Below are positions 914 to 34,549 of a stretch of 64,000 nt of DNA, in pieces. The stretch is from an uncultured Bacillales bacterium (GTDB lineage: Bacteria > Bacillota > Bacilli > Tepidibacillales > Tepidibacillaceae): contig CAZKBI010000004.1 of NCBI GenBank assembly GCA_964551195.1, forward strand, positions 4,189 to 68,188. The letters run 5' to 3'. The translations under genes and the position numbers were made by a program. The stretch's first letter is position 1; the number at the start of each line of letters is the position of its first letter. Below the pieces are notes generated by a model that saw only the letters and a list, made by a program, of their open reading frames with translations, ran no database searches and was not told the DNA's origin.

Positions 914-2818
914 TCACGATTTTGTTGCGATTTCTTGCAAGATATTCGTGATCAACTCTTTAGCTGGCTGTGTCCCTACATCACCCTGTTCCCTTTTGCG
1001 CACGGATATCACACGATCGTCTAATTCCTTATCACCTAGTACCAGCATATATGGTATCTTCTTTAGTTGCGCCTCGCGAATGCGATAACCGATCTTCTCA
1101 TTACGATCGTCTAATTCGACACGGATACCGGCTCCTTGCATCTGTTTAAATAACTCCTTGGCATACCCATTGTGTGGCTCAGCAATCGGTAGAATTACAG
1201 CCTGAACTGGCGCTAACCAAGTCGGAAAGGCACCAGCGTAATGTTCAATTAATAATGCCATAAAACGTTCCAAAGAACCATATACAACGCGGTGTATAAC
1301 TACCGGTGTATGACGCGAGTTGTCCTCGCCTATATAAGATAGGTCGAACTTTTCCGGCATTTGGAAATCAAGCTGAACCGTCCCCGCTTGCCAAGTGCGG
1401 CGTAGTGTATCGGACACATGGAAATCAATTTTAGGACCATAAAATGCGCCATCACCCTCATTAATTATATACTTAATTTTTTTGGTATCCAGGACATTCT
1501 TCAGTGCAGCAGTTGCCCGCTCCCAGAGCTCTTCTGAACCCATCGATTTTGCCGGACGAGTAGAAAGTTCAACATGATAAGTGAAACCAAATATTTTATA
1601 GAATTTATCGATTAAATCGATTACACCAGTTACCTCGCTCTCAATCTGGTCCGGACGACAAAAAATATGCGCATCATCCTGAGTAAAACTGCGTACCCGC
1701 AAGAGTCCGCTTAAGGCACCAGACATCTCGTGCCTGTGCACTAAGCCAAGCTCACCGTAGCGTATCGGTAAATCACGATAGCTATGCAGCTTAGTCTTGT
1801 AGGCTAACATGGAACCCGGACAGTTCATCGGTTTAATTGCGAATTCCGTATTATCAATTCTTGTAAAGTACATATTCTCATGATAATGCTCCCAGTGCCC
1901 TGACTGCTCCCAAAGCCGACGGTTTAGCATAATCGGTGTCTTAATTTCTTGGTAGCCTGCCTTCTGATGCTCATCACGCCATAGGTTTTCTAACTCGTTA
2001 CGAATCACCATCCCATTGGGATGATAAAAAGGCATGCCCGGAGCCTCTTCCGAGAAAGAAAATAAATCTAGTTCCTTGCCAAGTTTGCGATGATCACGTT
2101 TCTTCGCTTCCTCAAGAAAGTCCAAATACTCTTTTAACTCTGATTCCTTAAAGAAAGATGTTCCATAGATTCTTTGGAGCATTGGCCGATCAGAATCGCC
2201 ACGCCAATAAGCACCTGCAACACTTAATAATTTAAAGGCCTTAACTCCACTTGTTGACGGTAGATGCGGTCCACGGCAGAGGTCTACAAAATCACCCTGT
2301 CCATAAATCGAAATTTCAGCGTCCTCTGGTAGCTCCTTAATCAATTCTACTTTATAGCTCTCATCAGCATCTTCAAAAAGTTCTAGCGCCTCCTCGCGTG
2401 AAAGCACGCGCCTTTTGACTGGAACATTTTCATTTATAATCTTTTTCATCTCTTTTTCAATTTTCGTTAGATCCTCCGGCGTGAAAGATTCCGGATAGTC
2501 AATATCGTAATAGAAACCATCATCAATTGTTGGACCAATGCCAAACTTCGCCTCCGGATAAAGACGCGAAACTGCATGAGCCAATAAATGCGCAGAGCTA
2601 TGACGATAAATATCAAGTGCTTCCGGACTATCACTGGTGATAATCTCAAGTGCAGCGTCGTCAGTAATCGGCGTATAAATGTCAATTAAATGGTCGTCGA
2701 TTTTACCAGCTAATGCCCGTCTTCTTAACCCGGGACTGATTGAACCAGCGATCTCCTCAGTAGTAATTCCTTTGGCAAACTCCTTAATATCTCCATTCGG
2801 AAAAGTTATTTTAATCAT
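914..2818 (-). CDS. thrS: Threonine--tRNA ligase
   Basis: The product starts MIKITFPNGDIKEF (TGS domain) and carries a class II aaRS core. I moved the start to the ATG at 2818 (residue 33 of the track ORF), which follows a GGGGGAG RBS. The upstream 32 codons of the track ORF are the T-box terminator read as protein. Confidence 0.95.
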   Translation of the reverse strand: MIKITFPNGDIKEFAKGITTEEIAGSISPGLRRRALAGKIDDHLIDIYTPITDDAALEIITSDSPEALDIYRHSSAHLLAHAVSRLYPEAKFGIGPTIDDGFYYDIDYPESFTPEDLTKIEKEMKKIINENVPVKRRVLSREEALELFEDADESYKVELIKELPEDAEISIYGQGDFVDLCRGPHLPSTSGVKAFKLLSVAGAYWRGDSDRPMLQRIYGTSFFKESELKEYLDFLEEAKKRDHRKLGKELDLFSFSEEAPGMPFYHPNGMVIRNELENLWRDEHQKAGYQEIKTPIMLNRRLWEQSGHWEHYHENMYFTRIDNTEFAIKPMNCPGSMLAYKTKLHSYRDLPIRYGELGLVHRHEMSGALSGLLRVRSFTQDDAHIFCRPDQIESEVTGVIDLIDKFYKIFGFTYHVELSTRPAKSMGSEELWERATAALKNVLDTKKIKYIINEGDGAFYGPKIDFHVSDTLRRTWQAGTVQLDFQMPEKFDLSYIGEDNSRHTPVVIHRVVYGSLERFMALLIEHYAGAFPTWLAPVQAVILPIAEPHNGYAKELFKQMQGAGIRVELDDRNEKIGYRIREAQLKKIPYMLVLGDKELDDRVISVRKREQGDVGTQPAKELITNILQEIATKS

Positions 2819-2845
2819 TTTATTCTTTCTCCCCCTTAGCTTATT

Positions 2846-3100
2846 AAAAAACAAAAAACATGCATCAAATCCCCCATGGGACGATTGCATGTCGTGGTTC
2901 CACCCAAATTCCACCTATTGCTAGGCACTCATTGATGATGATAACGGTTACTAACCGGTAGTTGCTACTTCACTTCACAACAACTGCTCCTCGGTGGTAA
3001 GTAATCAGGCCCAGCTAAGAATCTTTCAGCTACTGATTCTCTCTCTTTTGCTAGCGTTTGTTACCCATGTCCTACTCATCGCATTTATTAACTCTCTATT
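2846..3100 (-). promoter_or_regulatory. T-box leader (threonine specifier) controlling thrS
   Basis: The minus strand has the conserved T-box sequence AATTTGGGTGGAACCACG (2910-2893), overlapping the 5' arm of a terminator hairpin CATGCAATCG...TGATGCATG (2891-2859) followed by TTTTTTGTTTTTT. Upstream are AGAGAGA/GA-type stem I elements and an ACC-A candidate Thr specifier near 2993-2998. Confidence 0.8.
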
Positions 3101-3107
3101 TGTAATA

Positions 3108-3136
3108 ATTATAAGGTTGCATCTTTAATTAGTCAA
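3108..3136 (-). promoter_or_regulatory. sigmaA-type promoter of the thrS T-box leader
   Basis: Minus strand: TTGACT (3136-3131), a 17-nt spacer, then TATAAT (3113-3108). Confidence 0.6.
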
Positions 3137-3137
3137 G

Positions 3138-4256
3138 TTACATTACGAAATCCTGATCCACCTGTTCACCTTCAGCAAAAATACGCAGAATTTCATAGCG
3201 CGTATTCCTTTGCGCCGGTATAAAACCTGCTAAACGAATTTGCTCCAACACTTGATTAGTATTCACCTTAAACTCTGTGCCAGCTGCGGCTACAACATTC
3301 TCTTCCATCATGGTACTACCGAAATCATTACAACCGTAGTGAAGCGATTGACGTCCAACCTCAGCCCCCATGGTTACCCAGGAAGATTGGATATTTGGAA
3401 TATTATCAAGGAATAACCGACTAATTGCTACCAGACGTAAATACTCTTCTGGCGTAACCTTTGAGTAAGCCTTCTTAGAAGCTAACTCCGTATTGTCAGG
3501 CTGGAATGTCCAAGGGATAAAGGCAAGAAAACCAGCTGTTTCATCCTGTGTTGTGCGTAAACGAGCTAAATGAAGAATTCTTTCATAGAGCGTTTCACCC
3601 AGACCGATTACCATCGTTCCGGTCGTACTTAAACCTAAGCTAATAGCAGTCTTCATAACATGCATCCATGTCTCCCAGGAGCCTTTCTTAAGACTAATTT
3701 CTAATCTAATCCGGTCATCAAGGATCTCCGCACCAGCGCCAGGCAATGAATCTAATCCAGCCTCATTGAGCTGACTAATTACCGATTCAAGTGGCTCTTT
3801 AGATTTCTCAACCATTTTCAGAATTTCTGCAGTTGAAAAGCTATGAATATGAACCCCGGGATAGTTTTCCTTAATTGTGCGCAGAAGTTTCAAATAGTAG
3901 CTTAGCGGTAATCCTGGATGCGTGCCACCTTGCATCAGAATCTCAGTTCCACCAACATCAACTAGCTCCTGCACCTTTTCCAAAATAGCCGGCGTCGAAA
4001 GCACATAGCCACCCACCTCGCCCGGCTTCTTATGAAAAGCACAGAAACTACAGCCCGTATCGCAGACATTAGAATAGTTTATATTTCGTCCAATCACAAA
4101 AGTCACCAGCGGTCCCGGATGTAACTCTTGCCTAATCTGATGTGCAACCTCACCTAATCGCTCAAGTGGCGCCTGCTCGTAAAGAAATAAGCCCTCTTCT
4201 TCAGAAAGCCGTTCTCCCTCAATTCTCTTCTGCAAAAGTTCTTCTACTCTTTCCAT
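3138..4256 (-). CDS. Radical SAM enzyme of the MqnC/MqnE/CofH family (futalosine-pathway type)
   Basis: 372 aa with the NINYSNVCDTGCSFCAF CxxxCxxC cluster. The overall pattern (GGTHP, LPGAGAEIL, IPWTFQP, NDFGSTMMEENV) is typical of MqnC/MqnE-like proteins. An AGGAGAG RBS precedes the start. Confidence 0.7.
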   Translation of the reverse strand: MERVEELLQKRIEGERLSEEEGLFLYEQAPLERLGEVAHQIRQELHPGPLVTFVIGRNINYSNVCDTGCSFCAFHKKPGEVGGYVLSTPAILEKVQELVDVGGTEILMQGGTHPGLPLSYYLKLLRTIKENYPGVHIHSFSTAEILKMVEKSKEPLESVISQLNEAGLDSLPGAGAEILDDRIRLEISLKKGSWETWMHVMKTAISLGLSTTGTMVIGLGETLYERILHLARLRTTQDETAGFLAFIPWTFQPDNTELASKKAYSKVTPEEYLRLVAISRLFLDNIPNIQSSWVTMGAEVGRQSLHYGCNDFGSTMMEENVVAAAGTEFKVNTNQVLEQIRLAGFIPAQRNTRYEILRIFAEGEQVDQDFVM

Positions 4257-4333
4257 ATTTCTCTCCTAAACCGATATTTTACACGTCTAACTTGTTCAAG
4301 CATCCAGCTTGTTCCTGCGCTTAGCTCAAGCGC

Positions 4334-5017
4334 TTATTCGATCCGCCAGTCTATCTCCTGCTCACCTAGTTCACGCAGTATTTCATTGGTTTGCGAAAAG
4401 TGGCGTGAACCGAAAAATCCACGATGGGCAGAGAGCGGACTAGGATGCGCTGCACTTAGTATGTAGTGATGAGAAGCGGAGATTTGCTTAGCTTTTGCCT
4501 GAGCATTGCGTCCCCACAGAATAAAAATAATCGGTTCCTGACGTTTATTAAGAACGTCAATTACCCGATCTGTAAACTGTTCCCAGCCAAGCTTCTTATG
4601 AGAATTGGGCTGCCCCTCGCGAACAGTTAATATTGTATTTAACAAAAGGACTCCTTGCTTTGCCCATTTGGTCAGGTTACCACTTATCGAAATCGGTAGA
4701 CCTAAATCCTGATTTAACTCGCGGAAGATGTTTCGTAGTGAAGGCGGTAAGGTCTCTCCTTCCTTAACGGAGAAAGCTAAACCATGTGCCTGTCCAACAC
4801 CATGATAGGGATCCTGCCCGATTATCACAAGGCGGGTCTCCTCATAGGATGTCAGATTCAGTGCAGTAAAGATTTCGCCTATTGCCGGATAAATTGTATG
4901 TCCCACATACTCCGCTTCTAGCTTAGCAGCTAACTCAATAAAGTACGTTTCAGTCAATTCACTTTTTAGAATCTCTGACCAATCATTTCGTGGCCAGTTT
5001 GCAAGCATTCTCTGCAT
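4334..5017 (-). CDS. ung: Uracil-DNA glycosylase
   Basis: Contains the family-1 UDG motifs GQDPYHG and HPSPLSA. Confidence 0.95.
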   Translation of the reverse strand: MQRMLANWPRNDWSEILKSELTETYFIELAAKLEAEYVGHTIYPAIGEIFTALNLTSYEETRLVIIGQDPYHGVGQAHGLAFSVKEGETLPPSLRNIFRELNQDLGLPISISGNLTKWAKQGVLLLNTILTVREGQPNSHKKLGWEQFTDRVIDVLNKRQEPIIFILWGRNAQAKAKQISASHHYILSAAHPSPLSAHRGFFGSRHFSQTNEILRELGEQEIDWRIE

Positions 5018-5030
5018 AGGTTTTCCTTCT

Positions 5031-5654
5031 TTACTTTCTTCTAGTCTTCAACTCATCCTTAATTTCTTCAATGCTCACATTCTCATGCGCCATCAGTACC
5101 AGTAGATGATAGACTAAGTCACTAATTTCATAGATTAATTCATCTTTATCGTCGCCCTTAGCAGCGATAATTATCTCGCTACTTTCTTCGCCAATCTTCT
5201 TCAGAATTTTATCAAGTCCAGTTGAGAGAAGATAGTTAGTATAGGAATCTTCACCAGGATTATTTCTGCGCTCCTCAATAATCGCATAAAGTTCTTGCAG
5301 AATATGAGTTGATTCGCTTTCATCGGCAATCACTGGGTTAAAAAAGCAAGAAAACTCGCCCGTATGACAAGCCACGCCTGTTTGTTTAACCTTAAGTAGC
5401 ACGGTATCAGCGTCACAGTCATAATATAAACCCTTGAGTTCCTGAATATTACCAGATGTTGCACCCTTCTTCCAGAGTTCTTGCCGACTACGACTATAAT
5501 AGTAGACCTCTTTCTCCTTAAGCGTTCTTTGGAGCGCTTCTGCATTCTGATAAGCAAGCATCAGCACTTCTCCTGTCCGATAATCTTGAGCGATCGCAGG
5601 CACTAAACCAGCCTCATTAAATTTAATTTTTCCAATCAATTCATCGTACTTCAT
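5031..5654 (-). CDS. hisIE: Bifunctional phosphoribosyl-AMP cyclohydrolase / phosphoribosyl-ATP pyrophosphatase
   Basis: 207 aa with an N-terminal HisI part (LVPAIAQD..., CHTGE.SCF) and a C-terminal HisE part. It is the last gene of the his operon. Confidence 0.9.
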   Translation of the reverse strand: MKYDELIGKIKFNEAGLVPAIAQDYRTGEVLMLAYQNAEALQRTLKEKEVYYYSRSRQELWKKGATSGNIQELKGLYYDCDADTVLLKVKQTGVACHTGEFSCFFNPVIADESESTHILQELYAIIEERRNNPGEDSYTNYLLSTGLDKILKKIGEESSEIIIAAKGDDKDELIYEISDLVYHLLVLMAHENVSIEEIKDELKTRRK

Positions 5655-5662
5655 ATGTCACC

Positions 5663-7156
5663 TCAGTTTCTGACCTTTACACCCTTAGACTTAAGATATT
5701 CTTTAAGATCCTTTATTTGAATCTCACCAGAATGAAAGACGGAAGCAGCAAGTAATCCACCAACCTTAGCTTCAGCAACAGCTTCATAGAAATGCTCCAG
5801 TTTACCGGCACCGCCAGAAGCAATTATCGGCACATTTACTGCAGATGTAATCTCTTTTAGTAGTTCAATATCATATCCGTCCCTCATGCCGTCACCATCA
5901 ATGCTATTAACAACAATCTCACCTGCTCCAAGTTCTACTGCTTTTCTTACCCACTCAATCGCATCCACACCAGTGTCCTCTTGGCCACCCTTGGCATAGA
6001 TATTCCAAGTACCATTTTCCTTACGTTTAACATCGATTGCCACGACAACTGTTCCAGACCCATATTCAACTGAGGCCGCAGTAATCAGTTCTGGGTTTTT
6101 TAGAGCTGCGGAGTTGATTGAAATTTTGTCAGCCCCAAGCACAAGTAAATCAGCAAAATCATTTAAATTAGCAACACCGCCGCCCACTGTAAAAGGTATA
6201 TCTACCTTTTCAGCAACCTTCCTAATAAATTCACGGGCTGGTGCGCGCCCCTCGATACTAGCTGTTATATCGTAGAAAACAAGTTCGTCGGCACCACTTT
6301 TGTTATAGAATTCAGCCAGAATTTCTGGACTATCAATATCCCTAATGTCTACAAATTGCTTGCCTTTAACGACGCGCCCATTACGGACATCCATACAAGG
6401 TATAATTCGAACATAATCAGTTAGGTCCACTTCATCTAGCGGATTTATCTTCTCTAGCGCTTGGGCTAAATCTATTTGCTGATTATATAAGGCCTTACCG
6501 ATAATACAGCCATACATTCCCGTTTCAGCCAGCTTAACAATATCTGAAAGCTCTGACACGCCGCCAGATGCGATTATCTTAAGTCCAGTCTGCTTTTGCA
6601 GAGTCTGATATATTTCAAAATTCGGCCCCTCTAACATGCCATCCTTCGAAATATCGGTATAAACAATTATCTCAAGGCCGATACTCTCCAATTCCTTACA
6701 AAATTCCAGAGAACCGACATTGCTTATAACCTCCCAACCATGAACAGCAACATAGCCATCTTTGGCATCAACACCGACAACAATCCGGTCGCTACCAAAT
6801 TCAGCAAGTAACTCGACAATTAAGTTTCTGTTCTCAATCGCAGCGGTTCCAAGAATGACACGTGCCACACCAAGTGAGAGCAGCTCGCGTGCCCGCTCAG
6901 CTGTCCTAATTCCACCACCAACCTGAACTGGTATCGAAATCCCACGCGTAATCTTCTCAATCGTATCGCGATTTACGGCAAAATCTCCTCGCGCTCCATC
7001 TAAATCAACAAGGTGCAAGTACTTAGCCCCCTGTCTTTCCCATTCAAGCGCCATCTTCAGCGGATCATCGGAATAGACTGTCTGCTGCGAATAATCGCCT
7101 TGGGTTAAACGAACACATTGATTGTCCTTTAGGTCAATTGCGGGTAATAGTAACAT
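5663..7156 (-). CDS. hisAF: Fused HisA (ProFAR isomerase) - HisF (IGP synthase cyclase subunit)
   Basis: 497 aa. Residues 1-236 are HisA-like ([17 protein letters not shown]). A short linker follows, and residues about 249-497 are HisF-like ([16 protein letters not shown] ... VFHSGEI). Confidence 0.9.
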
Positions 7157-17389: not shown

Positions 17390-18907
17390 TTATTTCGCCT
17401 TAGCATAATACCACCAGTTAGCGATGTCATTATAAGGTGTAAGACTATTCTTGATACTAATCTGATATTGCGGTTTAGCAAGCAGGATTGTATCAAGTGT
17501 TAACAGTGGCACAATATAATGTTGTGCGCCAAAATGTGTTTGCCACTCTTGATATTTGACCATAGCCTGCTTAGATTCAATGATAGTCTTTGCTTCGTTT
17601 AAAAGTTTATCCGATATTTCATCATTTAAATGAATTACATTATAACCATTATTTAATACATCATTTCTGGCAAGCCATTTATAATTTTCTTTCGTCAGGT
17701 TGAGTTCGAAATTGTTGCTTGCCAGAAATAATTCGTATTCACCCTTGGAATAAAGTGCTGCAACAAAATCTTTGTTTGCGATCGGTTTCAACTTAAGAGT
17801 GACCCCATTTGCTGCAAAATCTGCAGCAATTTTTTCCGCAATGAGTTGATAGAGCGCAGTATCAGCGTAGGCTAACTCTAATGATAGATCGCTTCCACTT
17901 AAATTAGCTTTGCTATCGCGAGCGGATAGATAATTAAAGCTCTTCTGATATAGCCAGGAATCCTGATGCACAATAGATAGTGGACGCTCAGCGTGTCCCG
18001 CAAATTTATTGGTAATCAATTCATCAACTTTAATTACTGAAGCGAGTGATTCTCTTATCACTTTATCTGTTAGTTTGTCGGAGTTCATATTAAAGCCTAA
18101 ATAAATATAGTTGGCACCAGCTAGGTCGTAGACCTTGCTTTTAGCAAAAAGTTCATTCTTAACATCAGTCGGCGTTGCATAGAAAGCGCCAGCGTTTGCT
18201 TTGTCAGAAGATGTGCTTAAACTGATTCGATCAAGAAAAACTTGCTCGCCGTAGTTTTCGTTTCGCACTAGCTCTAGGCCATTCTCATTTACCACATCGA
18301 TACGAAATGGACCGCTCGCTAATGGCTGCCCTGAGCTACTTTTCTTGCTAGAAACAAGAGGTGCTGTCAGAAATTCTATGTCGTTATAACTTAGCTTTTC
18401 AAAATTAAAGGTAATAACATTAGTCTCTTCATCAAGTTCAATACCGGAAATGTGGTCTGCCTTTTTAGTTCTAAATTTATCTGTTCCTATAAGGTTAAAT
18501 GATAAATCTTTCCAAACGCCATGGTAGTTAGTTCCGCTATATTGTTCGAAGCTATAGAGAATGTCTTCATAAGTAATCGTGCTACCGTCTTCCCATTTAA
18601 CTCCTTCTTTTAACTTGAATTTAACTTGGTTGTTCTCAATGTTGGCTGTAAGTTCTTCTGCGAGATCTCCGACAATCTTAAAATTATCATTATATTTAAA
18701 AAGTCCACGATAGATTGCTGCTTGAAAATTATTAATGGGTAGTTCCTCACCCATGATTTGTAGCGGATCATAATAAATATTCTCTAGCATGAAGCTTAAC
18801 TCTCCACCCTCAAGAGGTGCTAAATCATCTGGCTCCTTCTCTGTCAGATTGCATCCAGTTAAGACTAATGCCAATACAAGTAAAATTAGTAGTATGGTTT
18901 TTTTCAA
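17390..18907 (-). CDS. Family-5 (peptide/nickel type) ABC substrate-binding lipoprotein, orphan
   Basis: Signal peptide with lipobox LVLTGC. Has the canonical SBP_bac_5 order (KFKLKEGVKWEDGSTITYEDILYSF near the N-terminus). No permease or ATPase genes are adjacent. Confidence 0.8.
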   Translation of the reverse strand: MKKTILLILLVLALVLTGCNLTEKEPDDLAPLEGGELSFMLENIYYDPLQIMGEELPINNFQAAIYRGLFKYNDNFKIVGDLAEELTANIENNQVKFKLKEGVKWEDGSTITYEDILYSFEQYSGTNYHGVWKDLSFNLIGTDKFRTKKADHISGIELDEETNVITFNFEKLSYNDIEFLTAPLVSSKKSSSGQPLASGPFRIDVVNENGLELVRNENYGEQVFLDRISLSTSSDKANAGAFYATPTDVKNELFAKSKVYDLAGANYIYLGFNMNSDKLTDKVIRESLASVIKVDELITNKFAGHAERPLSIVHQDSWLYQKSFNYLSARDSKANLSGSDLSLELAYADTALYQLIAEKIAADFAANGVTLKLKPIANKDFVAALYSKGEYELFLASNNFELNLTKENYKWLARNDVLNNGYNVIHLNDEISDKLLNEAKTIIESKQAMVKYQEWQTHFGAQHYIVPLLTLDTILLAKPQYQISIKNSLTPYNDIANWWYYAKAK

Positions 18908-28686: not shown

Positions 28687-29661
28687 TTAATTATATAAGT
28701 GGCACGCTACGAAATGTCCTGGTTTTACCTCTTCAAACACTGGTCTGACCTCTTTACAGATTGGCATAGCCTTTGGACACCTTGGGGCGAATGGACAGCC
28801 ATCAGGTGGATTAATCGGACTAGCAACGTCACCTTCAAGGATAATCCGCTGACGTGCTCGCTCAATGTTAGGATCCGGGATGGGAATTGCCGATAATAGG
28901 GCTTCTGTATATGGATGTAGGGGATTTGTGCTTAACTCTACACTATCTGCTAATTCGACTATCTGGCCTAGATACATAACCGCTATTCGGTCACTTATGT
29001 GCTTAACCATTGATAAATCATGTGCTATGAATAGATAGGTTAGTCCTTTTTCCTTCTGCAAATCCTGTAACAGATTGACTATCTGCGCCTGGATTGAGAC
29101 ATCTAATGCCGATATCGGCTCATCGCAGATAATGAATTCAGGTTCAACCGCTAAGGCTCTTGCGATACCAATCCTCTGCCTCTGACCGCCGCTGAACTCG
29201 TGCGCAAAACGATTGGCATGCTCTTTATTAAGTCCTACAGTTTCTAGTAAATCATAAATACGCTCGGCACGTTCTTCCCCTTTGGACAGTTTGTGAATGT
29301 CAATGCCTTCGCCAACAATGTCGGTAATGGTCATTCGCGGATTAAGTGAAGCATAAGGGTCTTGAAAAATCATTTGCATAGAACGAGAAAAACTCTTCAT
29401 CTCTTTTTTGGAAAGATTCACAAGATTCTTACCCTTAAAGATTACTTCACCATCCGTTGGCTCGTATAGACGAATAATCGTCCTCCCCGTAGTTGACTTT
29501 CCGCATCCTGACTCACCAACCAGACCGAGGGTCTCTCCTCTTCTTATTGCAAAGCTAACATCATCAACTGCTTTAACATTACCAGCCGGTACCTTAAAAT
29601 ATTTTTTTAGATGCTTAACCTCCAGAATAATATCATTCTTATCATCAATATTATTTGTCAT
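28687..29661 (-). CDS. oppF: Oligopeptide ABC transporter ATP-binding protein
   Basis: Walker [10 protein letters not shown], signature FSGGQRQR, and a C-terminal oligopeptide-type extension. I placed the start at the ATG at 29661, after an AGGGGGTG RBS. Confidence 0.9.
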
Positions 29662-30676
29662 CTTTAGCACCCCCTATTTGAAATGGTAATCCCTCTTTAA
29701 GGGCGTACTCATGTTGTAGCCAACATTTTGTTTTATGTCCACCAGAAATCACAGTGGTTTCTGGATTTATCATAGTACAAATATCCATTGCAAAACTACA
29801 GCGCGGGTAAAACGCACAACCGCTCGGTGGATCAATCATATCTGGTGGTGTTCCGTCAATTGTCAAAAGACGCGTGCCCTTCGAATCAATTCGCGGCACT
29901 GACCTTAGTAAGGCCCAAGTATAAGGGTGTTGTGGATTATAAAATATATCATCCTTAGAACCAATTTCAACAATTTCACCAGCATACATAACAATTACAC
30001 GTTGTGCCATGTTAGCAACAACCCCTAAGTCGTGTGTGATTAGAATAATCGACGTGTTAAGCTTCGCTTGCAAATCCTTCATCAACTCCAGAATTTGAGC
30101 TTGAATCGTTACATCAAGTGCGGTTGTCGGCTCATCAGCTATAAGTAATCGTGGCTTGCTAGCAAGAGCGATTGCAATCATCGCGCGCTGGCGCATGCCT
30201 CCGCTAAACTCATGGGGATACTGCTTAATTCTAAGGTCTGGATTCGGAATCCCAACTAATTTAAGCATTTCAATCGCTTGCACCTTCGCTTCACTACGCG
30301 ATAAACCCTGGTGCTTAATTAAACCCTCAGTGATCTGGCTACCAATCGTCATAGTTGGATTTAGCGAAGTCATCGGGTCTTGAAAAATCATTCCAATCTT
30401 TGAACCTCGAATACTCTCCATCTGTTTATTAGTTAATTGTATTAGGTCTTTGTCATCAAAATGAATTTCTCCATTCTTATAAGCAGCCGGCGGAGCTGGA
30501 TTCAAGCGCATTATTGACTGCGCTGTAACACTTTTACCACTACCTGACTCACCAACAATTGCAATGGCCTCCCCCCTAGTCACATCGAATGAAATCCCAC
30601 GCACCGCTTGGACTTCACCCCCATACGTAAAAAAGGAGACTTCTAGTTCTTTTACACTTAAAATTTTCTCTGTCAT
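29651..30676 (-). CDS. oppD: Oligopeptide ABC transporter ATP-binding protein
   Basis: Walker A GESGSGKS and signature FSGGMRQR. Confidence 0.9.
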
Positions 30677-30687
30677 CTTGTCTCCCC

Positions 30688-31611
30688 CTATTTCCGTGAC
30701 CTTGGATCTAGAGCATCTCTTAATCCATCACCAAATACATTAAATGCAAACATTGTTATTGATATTAGAATAGCCGGGAAGACTAACCTCCACCAATAAC
30801 CCGTCAACATAACAGCAACACCATCATTAATCATTAAACCCCAACTAGTATCAGGCGGTGCTATACCTATACCAATAAAACTTAAAAAAGCCTCAGCGAA
30901 AATCGCGGATGGGATTGTTAAGGTTAAGTTAACAATAATTAATCCCAAAGTATTAGGAATCAGGTGTTTAGATAATAAACGTCTCGCACTTGCACCAAGT
31001 GTCCTAGCTGCCAGTACGAACTCCATTTCTTTGAGTTGCAATACCTGTCCCCTTACTAAACGAGCCATGCCGACCCAGCCGGTGGCCGCAATTGCTAATA
31101 CTATAGTTAGAATACCTTGTTTGTCGATTGCAACCATAATTAGAATAACAACAAGTAGATATGGTAGTGCATATAACACGTCAACGATACGCATCATTAT
31201 TTGGTCAACTCTACGGCTACTATAGCCAGAGACAGCACCATAAATAACACCAACTACTAAATCAATTGTCGCAGCAAAAAAACCAATCAATAGTGAAGTT
31301 CTTCCACCTTCCCAACTCCGAGCCCATATGTCACGACCTAGATGGTCGGTGCCAAACCAGTGCTCAAGAGAGGGACCAAGGTTCTGGTCAGATAAGTAAA
31401 TTTGCCTATAGCTAAATTCAGTCATATATGGTCCGAAAATTGACATCAAAACCATAAATATTATTAGATAAAAACCAATCATCGATAGTTTGTTTTCTCT
31501 TAACCTTCTAAAAGCATCTTTCAAGAGACTCGTACTAGGTCGACTAATAGTCTCAGCTTCTGCTTTGTCTGCATGATAAGGTTTAAACTTATCACGAGTT
31601 ATCCCTGTCAT
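30688..31611 (-). CDS. oppC: Oligopeptide ABC transporter permease
   Basis: BPD_transp_1 permease with an OppC-type N-terminus. I placed the start at the ATG at 31611, after an AAGGGGTGA RBS. Confidence 0.9.
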   Translation of the reverse strand: MTGITRDKFKPYHADKAEAETISRPSTSLLKDAFRRLRENKLSMIGFYLIIFMVLMSIFGPYMTEFSYRQIYLSDQNLGPSLEHWFGTDHLGRDIWARSWEGGRTSLLIGFFAATIDLVVGVIYGAVSGYSSRRVDQIMMRIVDVLYALPYLLVVILIMVAIDKQGILTIVLAIAATGWVGMARLVRGQVLQLKEMEFVLAARTLGASARRLLSKHLIPNTLGLIIVNLTLTIPSAIFAEAFLSFIGIGIAPPDTSWGLMINDGVAVMLTGYWWRLVFPAILISITMFAFNVFGDGLRDALDPRSRK

Positions 31612-31612
31612 A

Positions 31613-32542
31613 TTAGTCACCCCTTGTTCCCATTTTTATTCGTGGATCAATTATGCTATACAGAATATCAACTATAAAGTTAGCAATAATTAAAATCGCT
31701 CCAAAGAAAATAGTTGTACCCATTATGACTGGATAGTCACGTTGAGTAACACTACTTACGAAATATTTCCCTAAACCTGGAATAGCAAAAACCTGCTCAA
31801 TAACAAAGGTGCCTGTTAACAAACCTGCTATCAGTGGTCCAAGTATCGTTATTATTGGCATGATTGCATTTCTAACAGTATGTTTCCAAACAACTGCTAA
31901 ATTGCTTAAGCCCTTAGCCTTGGCTGTTCTAATATAGTCTTGACCAAGTACCTCTAGCATGTTTGAACGCATCAGACGCGCAACCACGGCCGTTGAGTGC
32001 ATGCCTAAGGCAATGGTTGGCAAGACAATACTTGCCAAGGAATCCCAACGTGCAATTGGAAACCAACCTAAATTAACTGCAAAAATAATAATCAATATTG
32101 GACCTAGTACAAGGTTAGGAATCGATACCCCTAAAACGGCAATTCCTGTGGCCGTATAGTCAATTATCGTGTTTCTCTTTAAAGCAGCAATAATTCCTAG
32201 GAGCAAACCAAATATCAGCGCAAAACCAAGTGCACCCGCTCCTAACGCTGCTGAAACAGGGAAGTGATCGGCTATAATTTCATTTACCGTTCTTGATTTG
32301 GAGAAATATGAGGGGCCAAGGTCACCTTGAATAAGGTTCCCAATATAGTTTACATACTGCTCTGGTACAGACTTATCTAAGCCATAATATTTCTCAAGAT
32401 TTGCCCTTATCTCCGGCGGCTGGTTGCGCTCCGAATTTAAAGGACTACCTGGAGCCAAATGCATTAATAAGAATGTGATTGTTATAATAACCCATAGTGT
32501 AATGACAAGCATTATCACTCTCTGTGTAATAAACCTTAACAA
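31613..32542 (-). CDS. oppB: Oligopeptide ABC transporter permease
   Basis: MLRFITQRVIMLVITLWVIITITFLLMHLAPGSP aligns from residue 1 with the OppB/DppB N-terminus. The TTG start follows a GGGGGTG RBS. Confidence 0.9.
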   Translation of the reverse strand: MLRFITQRVIMLVITLWVIITITFLLMHLAPGSPLNSERNQPPEIRANLEKYYGLDKSVPEQYVNYIGNLIQGDLGPSYFSKSRTVNEIIADHFPVSAALGAGALGFALIFGLLLGIIAALKRNTIIDYTATGIAVLGVSIPNLVLGPILIIIFAVNLGWFPIARWDSLASIVLPTIALGMHSTAVVARLMRSNMLEVLGQDYIRTAKAKGLSNLAVVWKHTVRNAIMPIITILGPLIAGLLTGTFVIEQVFAIPGLGKYFVSSVTQRDYPVIMGTTIFFGAILIIANFIVDILYSIIDPRIKMGTRGD

Positions 32543-32698
32543 AGACGAGCACCCCCATGAATATGTATGTGTTTATTATAATATATCATTTACTAAAAGA
32601 GATTTCATATAAGATATTTGTAAATATAGTTTTTACTATAACATTAAAAGCGAATAAAATACAGAATAATTTTTTTATATATTTTCAAATAGAAAAGA

Positions 32699-32718
32699 TG
32701 GCATACACAAGTATGCCA
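32699..32718 (-). terminator. Intra-operon hairpin (partial terminator/attenuator) between oppA and oppB
   Basis: Minus strand: an 8-bp TGGCATAC/GTATGCCA stem followed by a T-rich CTTTTCTATTT. This arrangement is common after the highly expressed binding-protein gene. Confidence 0.45.
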
Positions 32719-32747
32719 CCTTCTATAAATATTAACAAATTATCTTA

Positions 32748-34373
32748 TTACTTTAAAAGGTTACCATTATATTCGCGGAAATCAACGCTCATATCAGGAG
32801 ATGATCCTGGAGGAACAAAGCCAGTTGCTGGTAATTGTCCACCTTTTAGAATTTGATCAACAATCGCTTCACGATCAATTGCAAGTGATAGAGCTTTACG
32901 AATGTTTTCATTACCAAAGATTTCATCGTCATTTTGGAATATAACATAGTAAACACCTAAAATTGGTACTGACGTAGCTTCACCTGATTGTAGTAATTCA
33001 TATGTTAGTTCAGTAGGTGCTTGATCTTCGTGAATTTGGTTATTTTTGAATAATTGATAAGCTGTGTTATCATCATTAACCATAATCCATTTAATTGAGT
33101 TTAATTTAACCTCATCTTTATTCCAATAATTTTCGTTTTTAACAACTACAACTTCATCATCATGTTTCCAGCTTTCAAATTTGAAAGGACCGTTTCCGAC
33201 AAAGCTTGCTGCATTTGCAGCCCATTTATCATTGCCTTTTACAACTTTCTCGTTTACTGGGTAGAAACTACCAAATGCAGTAAGCTGTAAGAAATAAGGT
33301 GTTTGTGCTTCAAGTTCTACTTTAAGAGTTTTAGCATCAACTGCTGTTACTCCAACTTCATCTGCAGTTCCTTCGCCAGCATTGTATTTTTCACCGTTTT
33401 TCAGTACATACAATTGATAAGCATACTCTGCTGCATTAGCAGGGTCTAGAACACGCTTCCATGCAAATTCAAAGTCGTTTGCAGTAACAGGATCACCGTT
33501 AGTCCAGAAAATATCATCTTTAAGTTTGAAAGTATAAGTTAATTCATCTTCTGAAACCGTCCAACTTTCAGCCATTCCTGATCCTGGTGTTACTTCACTA
33601 TCCTTATCCAATCTTGTTAAACCTTCTTGAAGGTGACGAAGAATTTCAAAAGAAGTAGTGTCGGTAGCTAGAGCAGAATCTAAGCTAGGTGGTTCAGTAC
33701 GAGCATTAAGTAATAAATTATTCTTATATGCTGGGTCAGAAATAGATGCCCAAGTGTAGTCTCTGCTTCCTTCCCCATGAAGAACTAAACCTTTAACATA
33801 TTCTTGCTGTACTCTTACTTCTGTATAGAAGTAAATTGGTGCGACTCCAGCCTCTTTCAATAGAATCTTTTCAGCTTTGGATAAGTACTCTAAACGCTTT
33901 TCCTGATCGCCAGTTGCTTTTGCATCTGCTAGCAATTTATCGTATTCTGCGTTGCTGTAATTACCTCTGTTATTTCCGCCGCCTGTAAGGAGAACGTCAA
34001 GGAATGTGATTGGGTCCATGAAGTCCCCTAACCATCCCAAACGAGCCATTTGGAAATCGCCTTCAGATAAAGTGTCAAGATAAGCGTTCCACTCCATGTT
34101 GCCAAGTTCAACCTCAATGCCTAACTCATCAGCCCACATTGCTTGAAGTGCTTCAGCAATTTTCTGATGAGCATCATTTGTGTTGTAGATATACTTCACT
34201 GTTGGAAGTTCATCAAGACCTAATTCTTTTAAACCAGCATTTAATGCCTGCATTGCTTCGCTTTCATCGCCGTTTGCACCTGGCTTATCATCGCCATTAC
34301 AACCAACAAGGCCAAGACTTACAACCATAACTAATGCTAGTGCTAGAATTAGCATTTTACGACCTGTTTTCAT
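32748..34373 (-). CDS. oppA: Oligopeptide-binding lipoprotein, apparently circularly permuted family-5 SBP
   Basis: Signal peptide with lipobox LVGC (Cys25). All family-5 segments are present, but the segment that is normally C-terminal comes first (see finding). Confidence 0.85.
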   Translation of the reverse strand: MKTGRKMLILALALVMVVSLGLVGCNGDDKPGANGDESEAMQALNAGLKELGLDELPTVKYIYNTNDAHQKIAEALQAMWADELGIEVELGNMEWNAYLDTLSEGDFQMARLGWLGDFMDPITFLDVLLTGGGNNRGNYSNAEYDKLLADAKATGDQEKRLEYLSKAEKILLKEAGVAPIYFYTEVRVQQEYVKGLVLHGEGSRDYTWASISDPAYKNNLLLNARTEPPSLDSALATDTTSFEILRHLQEGLTRLDKDSEVTPGSGMAESWTVSEDELTYTFKLKDDIFWTNGDPVTANDFEFAWKRVLDPANAAEYAYQLYVLKNGEKYNAGEGTADEVGVTAVDAKTLKVELEAQTPYFLQLTAFGSFYPVNEKVVKGNDKWAANAASFVGNGPFKFESWKHDDEVVVVKNENYWNKDEVKLNSIKWIMVNDDNTAYQLFKNNQIHEDQAPTELTYELLQSGEATSVPILGVYYVIFQNDDEIFGNENIRKALSLAIDREAIVDQILKGGQLPATGFVPPGSSPDMSVDFREYNGNLLK

Positions 34374-34549
34374 AAATATATACCCCCCTATATTTTTTGA
34401 TTTTTATAATAAAGTTGCTAGGCAACCATTATAAACCTTTTAGTAAAATAACTTATACGACAGTTTAAGTACATAAGTACTTGTATTTTTTAATAATATC
34501 ATATTTTAAAAAATTTTGCTATATTTATTCAATAATTATACAGCAATCC

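What the first reader, a model, noticed from the sequence alone, without database searches (positions are those of the whole stretch)
32748..34373. OppA appears circularly permuted: the normally C-terminal segment (about 170 aa) follows the lipobox directly
After the signal peptide and Cys25, residues about 40-211 align with the last roughly 160 residues of canonical OppA, such as B. subtilis OppA. These residues read MQALNAGLKELGLDELPTVKYIYNTNDAHQKIAEALQAMWADELGIEVELGNMEWNAYLDTL..GDFQMARLGWLGDFMDPITFLD...NAEYDKLL...EKRLEYLSKAEKILLKEAGVAPIYFYTEVRVQ. The B. subtilis C-terminus reads ...LEKGLKEMGL...KLSYNTDDAHAKIAQAVQEMWKKNLGVDVELDNSEWNVYIDKL...MGWLGDFNDPINFLE...AEGIFIDEMPVAPIYFYTDTWVQ.... Only after about residue 212 (nt about 33720-33745) does the usual N-terminal module start: LLLNARTEPPSLDSALATDTTSFEILRHLQEGLTRLD...AESWTVSEDELTYTFKLKDDIFWTNGDPVTANDFEFAWKRVLDP. 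The protein then ends (...LPATGFVPPGSSPDMSVDFREYNGNLLK) where canonical proteins continue into the segment now found at the front. The other family-5 SBP in this window (17390-18907) has the normal order. The ORF is intact and heads a complete oppBCDF operon, so it is probably functional. I do not recall a natural circular permutation in a cluster C binding protein being described.
Basis: seen in the sequence. Interest (0 to 1): 0.6.

Follow-up and report, generated by a model that had tools for sequence, protein, structure and literature searches.

The report
Naturally circularly permuted OppA lipoprotein
The peptide-capturing lipoprotein of this bacterium's only Opp transporter has its two sequence halves in swapped order; the swap is real, inherited and kept by selection, and similar swaps turn out to have arisen repeatedly in this protein family without, as far as I could find, being described.

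Summary
In the 541-aa ORF at 32748-34373 (-), a lipoprotein signal peptide (Cys25) and a 10-residue tether come first. Residues 36-210 then match the last ~175 residues of B. subtilis DppE/OppA. An 8-residue joint follows, and residues 219-541 match canonical residues ~23-343. Nothing is missing or duplicated.

It is not an assembly artefact. Four other assemblies or genomes (71-91% identical; two genera with 1.0-1.5 Mb genomes) carry the same order at the same fumAB|oppA|oppBCDF site. dN/dS is 0.08-0.17 in both modules, and 38 of 39 family-invariant residues are kept. AlphaFold2 scores the permuted protein and its canonical ortholog identically (pLDDT 92.2, pTM 0.87).

The nearest relatives (about 64-72% identical, Vulcanibacillus-like) are canonical and sit at the same locus. 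The permutation therefore arose once, locally, most likely by duplication, in-frame fusion and truncation.

It is not unique. I found at least four further independent permuted lineages in Bacillota, including cultured Mahella australiensis, and about six cut-site classes in metagenomic relatives.

The searchable literature describes natural permutation only for a cluster B sugar-binding protein (T. pallidum MglB-2).

Verdict: real, functional, a new variant of a known kind.

The parts
34383..34389 (-). Ribosome-binding site AGGGGGG, 9 nt before the ATG
   Evidence: Read directly from the sequence.
34299..34373 (-). Lipoprotein signal peptide, residues 1-25 (MKTGRKMLILALALVMVVSLGLVGC), with lipobox L-V-G-C25
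   Evidence: The stretch SLGLVGC is shared with the signal peptide of the canonical ortholog P0008. pLDDT is below 50.
34269..34298 (-). Flexible tether, residues 26-35 (NGDDKPGANG), between the lipid anchor and the fold
   Evidence: Predicted disordered (pLDDT below 50 for residues 18-34). Length and sequence vary among the orthologs.
33744..34268 (-). Module C, residues 36-210. It equals canonical DppE 345-519: most of the C-lobe (domain III) plus the C-terminal strands that return to domain I. It holds the R111/W114/D117 motif (ARLGWLGD).
   Evidence: E about 1e-40 to 1e-47; HMM positions 366-542.
33720..33743 (-). Inner joint, residues 211-218 (SISDPAYK). It links the old C-terminus (...DYTWA) to the old mature N-terminus (NNLLLNARTEPPS...).
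   Evidence: The basal ortholog P0007 still shows the whole canonical C-end (DYSWAYLED, against DYTWAYIEK*) followed by EAAGNN. pLDDT is 94-98.
32751..33719 (-). Module N, residues 219-541. It equals canonical DppE 23-343: domain I, domain II and the first ~70 residues of domain III. It ends ...DFREYNGNLLK.
   Evidence: E 1e-92; HMM positions 39-364.
32748..32750 (-). Stop codon TAA, followed in frame by a second TAA. It lies in what is a 6-residue loop in canonical proteins.
   Evidence: canonical ...DFREYNGELIED|VAAAKGYLEAGLKEL.
32689..32726 (-). Stem-loop followed by a U-rich tract between oppA and oppB; a likely partial terminator that sets an excess of SBP over translocator
   Evidence: dG -21 kcal/mol, z -4.2, 0 of 200 shuffles fold as well. 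The mechanism is described for ABC operons in PMC9045158 (listed; abstract only read).
28687..32542 (-). oppB (31613-32542), oppC (30688-31620), oppD (29651-30676) and oppF (28687-29670): the cognate translocator
   Evidence: The gene order matches the orthologous loci, whose products carry BPD_transp_1, OppC_N, ABC_tran and oligo_HPY.

Best explanation
The gene encodes a functional, lipid-anchored oligopeptide-binding protein (OppA/DppE type, cluster C, Pfam SBP_bac_5). Its chain order is a natural circular permutation of the canonical one.

Anatomy (shown). The order is signal peptide with Cys25 lipid anchor, a short tether, canonical residues ~345-520, an 8-residue joint between the old termini, then canonical residues ~23-343. 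The new termini lie in a surface loop of the C-lobe, between a short helix (DFREY) and a long helix (xAxxxLxxGLKEL).

Function (inferred). All elements of the fold and the conserved binding-cleft motif are present, so the protein should close on peptides like any OppA. It should deliver them to OppBCDF, encoded directly downstream. It is the only close OppA homolog in this 1.04-Mb, ~97% complete genome.

Distribution (shown). The permutation arose once, at this locus, in the common ancestor of two small-genome genera related to Vulcanibacillus and Tepidibacillus. It has been maintained by purifying selection since.

Origin (inferred). The most likely route is permutation by duplication: tandem duplication of oppA or of its mature coding part, in-frame fusion, loss of the first N-module, and truncation of the last C-module. 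Each of these intermediate states exists elsewhere in the family.

Consequence (inferred). The membrane tether now leaves from the C-lobe instead of the N-lobe.
For: - Permutation: two offset diagonals against solved OppA/DppE with the break at 343|345, and HMM coordinates [36-212:366-542][214-541:39-364].
- Not an artefact: the same order occurs in P0002-P0007 from NCBI, ENA and Logan assemblies. It also occurs in genomes G001-G004, where the joint is contiguous at 71-91% identity with no stops.
- Orthology: the synteny citZ-icd-fumA-fumB | oppA | oppBCDF-DUF3899 is shared by the permuted loci. The same site holds canonical oppA in Vulcanibacillus and in the sister lineages.
- Single local origin: the permuted proteins form one clade in the N-module tree (81/81), the C-module tree (97/90) and the concatenated tree (SH-aLRT 92). 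The clade is nested among canonical proteins and sister to P0008/P0010/P0012.
- Function: dN/dS is 0.08-0.17 in each module, with dS up to more than 1.4. 38 of 39 invariant and 60 of 64 near-invariant canonical residues are kept, including R111, W114 and D117.
- Fold: AF2 gives pLDDT 92.2 and pTM 0.87, identical to the canonical ortholog P0008, and the joint scores 94-98. After rotation, 505 positions align at 68% identity with 97.6% secondary-structure agreement.
- Only copy: tblastn of both modules on the genome finds only this gene; completeness is 96.9%.
- Route: a tandem oppA pair sits at this very locus in V. modesticaldus. An in-frame abutting pair in G024 has a second copy without a signal peptide, separated from the first by two stop codons. 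In-frame fused tandem units exist (P0438, P0449). The Mahella protein carries the boundary helix at both ends.
Against:
- No model coordinates were available, so the three-dimensional equivalence rests on pTM, pLDDT and secondary structure, not on a permutation-aware superposition. Foldseek aligns only the N-module (TMq 0.50-0.56, about 330 columns), as expected for a sequential aligner.
- The AF2 alignment covered the canonical relatives as separate N and C fragments. Only six rows link the two modules.
- No intermediate (N-C-N-C fusion or relic) was found in this lineage: the flanks of the permuted genes hold no module remnants. The V. modesticaldus tandem pair is a separate, lineage-specific duplication. 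The route of origin is therefore inferred by analogy.
- The score against the NCBIfam OppA equivalog model is far below its cut-off (297 against 947 bits), so substrate specificity is not established.
Confidence: 0.85

Rival explanations
1. Assembly or binning artefact: a chimeric contig joined the 3' part of one oppA copy to the 5' part of another.
For: The genome is a metagenome-assembled draft of 44 contigs. Tandem oppA arrays that could mislead an assembler are common in relatives. Reads could not be checked.
Against: The same order occurs in independently assembled contigs from different samples and pipelines, at 71-91% identity. The open frame is complete, with a signal peptide fused directly to module C and a clean joint. 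dN/dS is 0.08-0.17 across orthologs. Base composition shows no break at the joint.
Confidence: 0.01
2. A decaying remnant: two tandem paralogs collapsed by deletions into a non-functional fusion, and the transporter uses another SBP such as the orphan at 17390-18907.
For: No direct functional data exist. A second, canonical family-5 SBP without its own permease lies in the window.
Against: The two modules are exactly complementary. Purifying selection acts on both modules over dS greater than 1. 38 of 39 invariant residues are kept. AF2 confidence equals that of the canonical ortholog. The gene keeps a strong RBS, a lipobox and the first position in the operon in every ortholog.
Confidence: 0.04
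3. The permuted gene was not made locally. It belongs to an old permuted lineage (such as the Mahella/Caldanaerobius type) and arrived by horizontal transfer, replacing the resident oppA.
For: P0001 aligns collinearly over its full length with the permuted Mahella australiensis protein at 40% identity. Permuted forms are widespread.
Against: Both modules are 61-73% identical to the canonical genes at the same syntenic site and nest among them in every tree. The Mahella group branches elsewhere and is cut about 20 residues later.
Confidence: 0.04
4. The origin was fission followed by fusion: the gene split into two ORFs that later rejoined in reverse order, or module C was cut and pasted into the tether in a single event. 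Duplication and truncation were not involved.
For: No duplicated relic or overlap is left in this lineage. The tether pieces before module C and before module N add up to about the canonical tether length, which fits an insertion of module C into the tether.
Against: A split SBP would need both halves to be exported and to assemble, and no split form was seen among the relatives examined. The intermediates of the duplication route exist in the family: tandem pairs, in-frame abutting pairs, fused tandem units, and an overlap of the boundary helix in Mahella.
Confidence: 0.2

Closest known systems
B. subtilis OppA and DppE (PDB 8are/8arn, 8ay0/8azb); canonical cluster C (SBP_bac_5) lipoproteins of Opp/Dpp ABC importers
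   Same: 41-47% identity to DppE in each module. All fold elements are present, with the lipoprotein signal peptide and the GWLGD binding-cleft motif. The gene is first in an oppBCDF operon.
   Different: The chain order is rotated: canonical 345-520 comes before canonical 23-343. The old termini are joined by 8 residues, and the new termini and lipid tether lie in the C-lobe. No PDB chain is collinear with it (the best Foldseek alignment is 355 columns).
Canonical positional orthologs: Vulcanibacillus sp. MAG P0008, V. modesticaldus BHF71_06470/06475 (P0009/P0011), and P0010/P0012
   Same: The same locus (fumAB | oppA | oppBCDF | DUF3899...). The N-module is 68-73% and the C-module 61-65% identical. 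The signal peptide is homologous.
   Different: They have the canonical order, and V. modesticaldus has a tandem pair. The residue K366, invariant in canonical proteins and lying just after the cut, is lost in 5 of 6 permuted proteins.
Treponema pallidum Tp0684 (MglB-2), 'Cluster Bc' (Brautigam et al. 2016, PMC4990184)
   Same: It is a natural circular permutant of an ABC-importer binding lipoprotein. It is conserved in a clade and still binds its ligand. Its authors also raise membrane tethering as a possible reason.
   Different: It belongs to a different structural cluster (B, sugar-binding, type I fold) and has a different cut. It is not homologous at the sequence level. Its origin was not traced to canonical orthologs at the same locus.
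Other permuted SBP_bac_5 lineages found here: Mahella australiensis CP002360.1 (P0262), Caldanaerobius (P0310), Lachnospiraceae (P0123-6), Faecousia (P0122), and P0244
   Same: The same family and the same kind of rearrangement. Most are lipoproteins, and several head oppBCDF operons.
   Different: They have independent origins (the tree needs 6 changes) and other cut sites: HMM ~305-312, ~378-392 and ~460-474, against ~365 here. P0244 carries an added Cu_amine_oxidN1 domain and has no transporter genes nearby.
Engineered circular permutants of binding proteins used for biosensors and folding studies (for example PMC6335823, PMC9815098)
   Same: They show that bilobed binding proteins tolerate new termini and joined old termini (titles and abstracts only).
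   Different: They are man-made, mostly from clusters B, D and F, and are not lipid-anchored or coupled to a transporter.

Membership tests
Cluster C / Pfam PF00496 (SBP_bac_5) OppA-DppE type binding proteins | Significant match to the family model | tested here: met
   PF00496 scores 299 bits against a cut-off of 32.4, in two stretches. DppE E 1e-135 and OppA E 1e-131.
Cluster C / Pfam PF00496 (SBP_bac_5) OppA-DppE type binding proteins | Complete set of fold elements and conserved residues | tested here: met
   After rotation, 505 positions align to the canonical ortholog, with 97.6% secondary-structure agreement between the AF2 models. 38 of 39 invariant and 60 of 64 near-invariant residues are kept.
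Cluster C / Pfam PF00496 (SBP_bac_5) OppA-DppE type binding proteins | Canonical N-to-C chain order, as in all solved structures | tested here: not met
   The order is rotated. No PDB chain is collinear. This is the point of the finding: it is a homolog with a variant topology.
Cluster C / Pfam PF00496 (SBP_bac_5) OppA-DppE type binding proteins | Gram-positive type lipoprotein signal peptide | tested here: met
   The sequence MKTGRKMLILALALVMVVSLGLVG-C25 was read directly and is homologous to canonical signal peptides.
Cluster C / Pfam PF00496 (SBP_bac_5) OppA-DppE type binding proteins | Encoded with an Opp-type translocator (two permeases, two ATPases) | tested here: met
   OppB and OppC have NCBIfam matches. 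ORFs with the lengths of oppD and oppF follow, and the gene order matches annotated orthologous loci.
Cluster C / Pfam PF00496 (SBP_bac_5) OppA-DppE type binding proteins | Binds oligopeptides and delivers them to OppBCDF | not testable with these tools
   Inferred only, from the conserved R111/W114/D117 motif, selection and operon context.
NCBIfam OppA equivalog (NF011684) | Whole-protein score above the curated cut-off | tested here: not met
   296.9 bits against a cut-off of 947. PGAP names the permuted relatives only 'ABC transporter substrate-binding protein'.
Natural circular permutants (same elements, rotated order) | Two offset diagonals that together cover the canonical protein once, without loss or duplication | tested here: met
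   36-210 aligns to 345-519 and 219-541 to 23-343 of DppE.
Natural circular permutants (same elements, rotated order) | Heritable: orthologs share the order and evolve under constraint | tested here: met
Natural circular permutants (same elements, rotated order) | Three-dimensional superposition on the canonical fold under a permutation-aware alignment | tested here: inconclusive
   No coordinates were returned. Indirect support comes from pTM 0.87, equal to the canonical model, and from secondary structure. Foldseek is sequential and covers only the N-module.
T. pallidum MglB-2 'Cluster Bc' permuted sugar-binding proteins | Cluster B (type I) fold and homology to MglB | tested here: not met
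   All sequence and structure matches are to cluster C proteins. It is analogous in kind only.

The most novel reading that the evidence does not exclude
Cluster C binding proteins are a natural hot-spot of circular permutation, with dozens of independent events at a handful of permissive loops. In tethered forms, the permutation would be selected because it moves the membrane anchor, or a fused sensor or kinase domain, from the N-lobe to the C-lobe. That would change how the protein stands on its translocator or signalling partner. The young, syntenic pair of permuted and canonical oppA genes described here would be the cleanest natural system in which to test this.
Probability: 0.25. Interest if true: 0.75.

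Novelty: new variant of a known kind. Interest (0 to 1): 0.55.

Why it matters
1. It gives a dated, traceable example of how a large three-domain protein is rewired in nature. Permuted and canonical orthologs sit at the same chromosomal site and are still ~70% identical, so ancestral states and intermediates can be rebuilt and tested.

2. In the only solved complex of a cluster C lipoprotein with its translocator (M. tuberculosis DppABCD, PMC10954201), the protein stands on the translocator through its hinge and N-lobe, and DppB holds the N-terminal loop with the lipid anchor. A protein tethered through the C-lobe is a natural test of whether that geometry is required.

3. The natural cut sites mark positions where the fold tolerates new termini, which is useful for designing biosensors and domain insertions. 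They are HMM ~150-163, ~204, ~305-312, ~363-392 and ~460-474.

4. Annotation pipelines under-name these proteins and domain models split them, so family censuses and specificity predictions miss them.

Tried and rejected
- **Read support.** Independent assemblies stand in for that check.
- **Relics.** tblastn of the canonical SP, N and C modules on the flanks of five permuted loci found nothing at E below 1. No footprint of the deleted copies remains.
- **Two-paralog test.** I asked whether module C descends from one tandem paralog and module N from the other. The V. modesticaldus pair are each other's sisters in both trees, so the test is uninformative and that pair is not the ancestor.
- **False leads.** Loci L014-L018, L050 and L057 showed module C before module N in the same frame, but they are tandem arrays of canonical genes. 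P0257 ('partial', Brockia) looks like an ORF-call extension. All were set aside.
- **Foldseek.** It is a sequential aligner and cannot show the permuted superposition. I used secondary-structure comparison after rotation instead.
- **Duplicated 'NG..E' motif.** The tether of P0001, P0003 and P0007 resembles the canonical ...NGELIED boundary. The motif is too short and the region too low in complexity to count as evidence.
- **Base composition.** No discontinuity appears across the gene.
Full report
**1. The observation**

The ORF at 32748-34373 (minus strand) encodes 541 residues, beginning MKTGRKMLILALALVMVVSLGLVG-C25. phmmer against all PDB sequences gives two strong, offset alignments to B. 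subtilis DppE (8ay0). Residues 219-541 align to DppE 23-343 (E 1e-92), and residues 36-210 align to DppE 345-519 (E 1e-40). B. subtilis OppA (8are), Listeria OppA, MppA and Salmonella OppA show the same pattern. The last residue of the ORF aligns to DppE 343, and the first folded residue after the tether aligns to DppE 345. The two modules therefore cover the canonical protein once, with no loss and no duplication. Pfam PF00496 matches in two stretches, while the other family-5 protein of the window (17390-18907) matches in one collinear stretch.

**2. It is not an artefact**

A search of 5.8 billion proteins found six clusters (P0002-P0007) that align to the whole query in one piece. They are 69-100% identical by module and come from NCBI, ENA and Logan assemblies. 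From P0008 onward, hits cover only ~60% of the query. My module-by-module BLAST shows that P0001-P0007 have order C-N and all 114 others have order N-C.

In whole genomes, the joint (query residues 140-300) is contiguous and free of stops in four other genomes:
- three of the same genus (85-91% identical, 1.0-1.1 Mb);
- one of a second genus (71% identical, 1.5 Mb).

All other genera of the family give separate hits for the two halves. Base composition is even across the gene.

**3. Orthology and origin**

The permuted genes lie in the same neighbourhood: citrate synthase, isocitrate dehydrogenase and fumarase alpha/beta upstream, then oppA, oppBCDF and DUF3899 downstream. This holds in the NCBI MAG and in the ENA and Logan contigs, where each contig reaches as far as its length allows. 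The same site holds canonical genes in relatives:
- a single canonical oppA in a Vulcanibacillus MAG and in the sister lineages P0010 and P0012;
- a tandem pair of canonical oppA genes in V. modesticaldus.

Separate trees of the two modules agree. The permuted proteins form one clade (N-module 81/81; C-module 97/90), sister to canonical P0008/P0010/P0012. The V. modesticaldus pair is a separate duplication. A concatenated tree gives the same picture. The permutation thus arose once, in place, before the two small-genome genera split.

The junctions are telling:
- The signal peptide (…SLGLVGC) is homologous to canonical signal peptides.
- The protein ends …DFREYNGNLLK*, where canonical proteins continue …DFREYNGELIED-VAAAKGYLEAGLKEL….
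- The fold starts …ESEAMQALNAGLKEL….
- At the inner joint, the basal ortholog P0007 reads DYSWAYLED-EAAGNN-LILNARTEPPS. That is the complete canonical C-end (DYTWAYIEK*) followed by a few tether residues and the canonical mature N-terminus.

No relic of the lost copies remains in the flanks.

**4. Function**

- Selection: pairwise dN/dS among the permuted orthologs is 0.08-0.17 in each module, with dS up to more than 1.4.
- Conserved residues: of the residues invariant in 65 canonical relatives, P0001 keeps 38 of 39. It keeps 60 of 64 nearly invariant residues, including R111, W114 and D117 in ARLGWLGD. From my memory of Salmonella OppA (Arg413, Trp416, Asp419), this is the motif that holds the peptide termini.
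- The one exception: the lost invariant is the lysine (K366 of P0008) in the helix just after the cut. It is replaced in 5 of 6 permuted proteins.
- Structure prediction: AlphaFold2 on an alignment of the permuted proteins plus N and C fragments of 67 canonical genes gives pLDDT 92.2 and pTM 0.87. Only residues 1-34 are disordered, and the joint scores 94-98. The canonical ortholog P0008 gives the same numbers.
- Rotation test: when the permuted chain is rotated back, 505 positions align at 68% identity, and the DSSP states of the two models agree at 97.6%. The cut lies in a six-residue loop between a short helix and a long helix.
- Foldseek against PDB finds DppE and OppA first, but aligns only ~330 columns (TMq 0.50-0.56). 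No solved chain is collinear with this protein.
- Gene context: the gene has a strong RBS. It is the only close OppA homolog in a ~97% complete 1.04-Mb genome. A stable hairpin with a U-tract follows it, ahead of oppB. This is the arrangement reported to set SBP excess in ABC operons (PMC9045158; abstract).

**5. How it probably arose**

This part is inference. The classical route is duplication, in-frame fusion and truncation at both ends. Each intermediate state exists in the family, though none was found in this lineage:
- a tandem pair at this locus;
- an in-frame abutting pair in which the second copy has lost its signal peptide and only two stop codons separate the units (G024);
- proteins with two to four fused complete units (P0449, P0438);
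- a permutant that still carries the boundary helix at both ends, degenerate at the N-end (Mahella, …EPTYEELVAKLPTIKF… and …QEEAKKLLIEGIKELGLDK*).

A cut-and-paste of module C into the tether, or fission followed by fusion, cannot be excluded.

**6. It is not unique**

Among 80 loci from GTDB species representatives I found two more single-ORF permutants with different cuts. One is from Faecousia (P0122, cut at OppA ~290|293). The other is from a Lachnospiraceae MAG (P0123, cut ~20 residues after ours). P0123 has permuted relatives at 68-95% identity and canonical relatives at 70-77%, the same pattern as in the window's clade.

A genome of the window's own family encodes P0244. It consists of a signal peptide, a Cu_amine_oxidN1 domain, module C and module N, and it has no transporter genes nearby. 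Mahella australiensis (complete genome, where the gene heads oppBCDF), Caldanaerobius and others form a further group. On a tree of rotated sequences, the permuted state needs six changes.

A search of 1.84 billion cluster representatives with P0122, classed by coordinates on a canonical HMM, shows that over a third of the nearest 150 clusters are permuted. Single-unit, apparently full-length proteins (most with a lipobox) fall into these cut classes:

| Cut class (HMM position) | Clusters |
|---|---|
| ~150-163 | 2 |
| ~204 | 1 |
| ~305-312 | 10 |
| ~363-376 | 2 |
| ~378-385 | 3 |
| ~460-474 | 16 |

Permuted units also occur fused behind Ser/Thr kinase domains and at the end of proteins of about 3,300 residues. 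Notes from this scan report further permuted family-5 proteins in Actinomycetota, Chloroflexota and Asgard archaea. I did not check those claims.

**7. What is known**

Seven full-text searches found no description of a natural permutation in OppA, DppA or other cluster C proteins. The one described natural permutant of an ABC binding protein is T. pallidum MglB-2, cluster B, named 'Cluster Bc'. Its authors also wondered about tethering (PMC4990184). The library holds open-access papers and preprints only, so an earlier description in a subscription journal cannot be ruled out.

**8. Mechanistic consequence (inferred)**

In M. tuberculosis DppABCD, the lipoprotein stands on the translocator through its hinge and N-lobe, and DppB holds its N-terminal loop and lipid (PMC10954201). 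Here a ~10-residue tether leaves from the C-lobe. Either docking differs, or the new N-terminus lies on the membrane-facing side. Without coordinates I could not measure this.

**9. Verdict**

The gene is a real, functional, inherited circular permutant of OppA: a new variant of a known kind. Its particular value is the young age and clean synteny of the event. Its uniqueness is lowered by the finding that such permutations recur across the family.

Noticed in passing
whole genome G000 (window = C4:4189-68188): The genome is only 1.04 Mb in 44 contigs, yet it is rated 96.9% complete and 0.01% contaminated. Three genomes of the same genus are 1.0-1.1 Mb and one of a sister genus is 1.5 Mb, while other genera of the family have 1.9-3.5 Mb. 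This is a strongly reduced Bacillales lineage, and the permuted OppA is confined to these small-genome genera.
   Followed up: partly
L088 (G024:C3:437000-447000), reverse strand about 2817-6017: This is a tandem array of canonical oppA genes. The middle copy has no signal peptide and starts in frame only ~20 nt after the upstream gene. Two stop codons separate the units, and reading through them would give 1067 aa. It looks like a near-fusion state on the duplication route to permutation, or a decaying copy.
   Followed up: partly
L087:3013-5148 (-), protein P0244: This 711-aa secreted protein consists of a Cu_amine_oxidN1 domain followed by a permuted SBP_bac_5 unit. No transporter genes appeared among the same-strand ORFs checked in the 8.5-kb stretch, and a sensor-kinase-like ORF lies upstream. 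Its nearest relatives (41-48% identical) are canonical.
   Followed up: partly
proteins P0476, P0479 (also P0408, P0453, P0364, P0365, P0438): Metagenomic relatives include Ser/Thr protein kinases fused to a permuted SBP_bac_5 unit (cut near HMM 465). Proteins of about 3,300 aa end in a permuted unit, and one 2,704-aa protein has four in-frame complete units.
   Followed up: partly
window 34251-34253 (-), residue M41 of P0001 (= K366 of canonical P0008): This lysine is invariant in 65 canonical relatives and sits in the helix just after the cut. It is the only invariant residue lost in the window's protein and is replaced in 5 of 6 permuted orthologs (M, V, V, G, Y). This suggests its role depended on the chain continuity that the permutation removed.
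   Followed up: no
window 32689-32726 (-): A stable hairpin (dG -21 kcal/mol, z -4.2) with a U-rich tail lies between oppA and oppB. It is probably a partial terminator that gives an excess of binding protein.
   Followed up: partly
database names of P0260, P0262, P0310, P0124: NCBI names the permuted proteins only 'ABC transporter substrate-binding protein', while their canonical relatives are named 'peptide ABC transporter substrate-binding protein'. The permutation seems to defeat the naming models: the window's protein scores 297 bits against a cut-off of 947 for the OppA model.
   Followed up: no
window 17390-18907 (-): A second, canonical family-5 lipoprotein (505 aa) lies here with no permease genes beside it. 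It sits between a DnaD/DnaB-like gene and nrdR. It is too distant from the OppA at 32748-34373 to be found by tblastn at E 1e-3.
   Followed up: no
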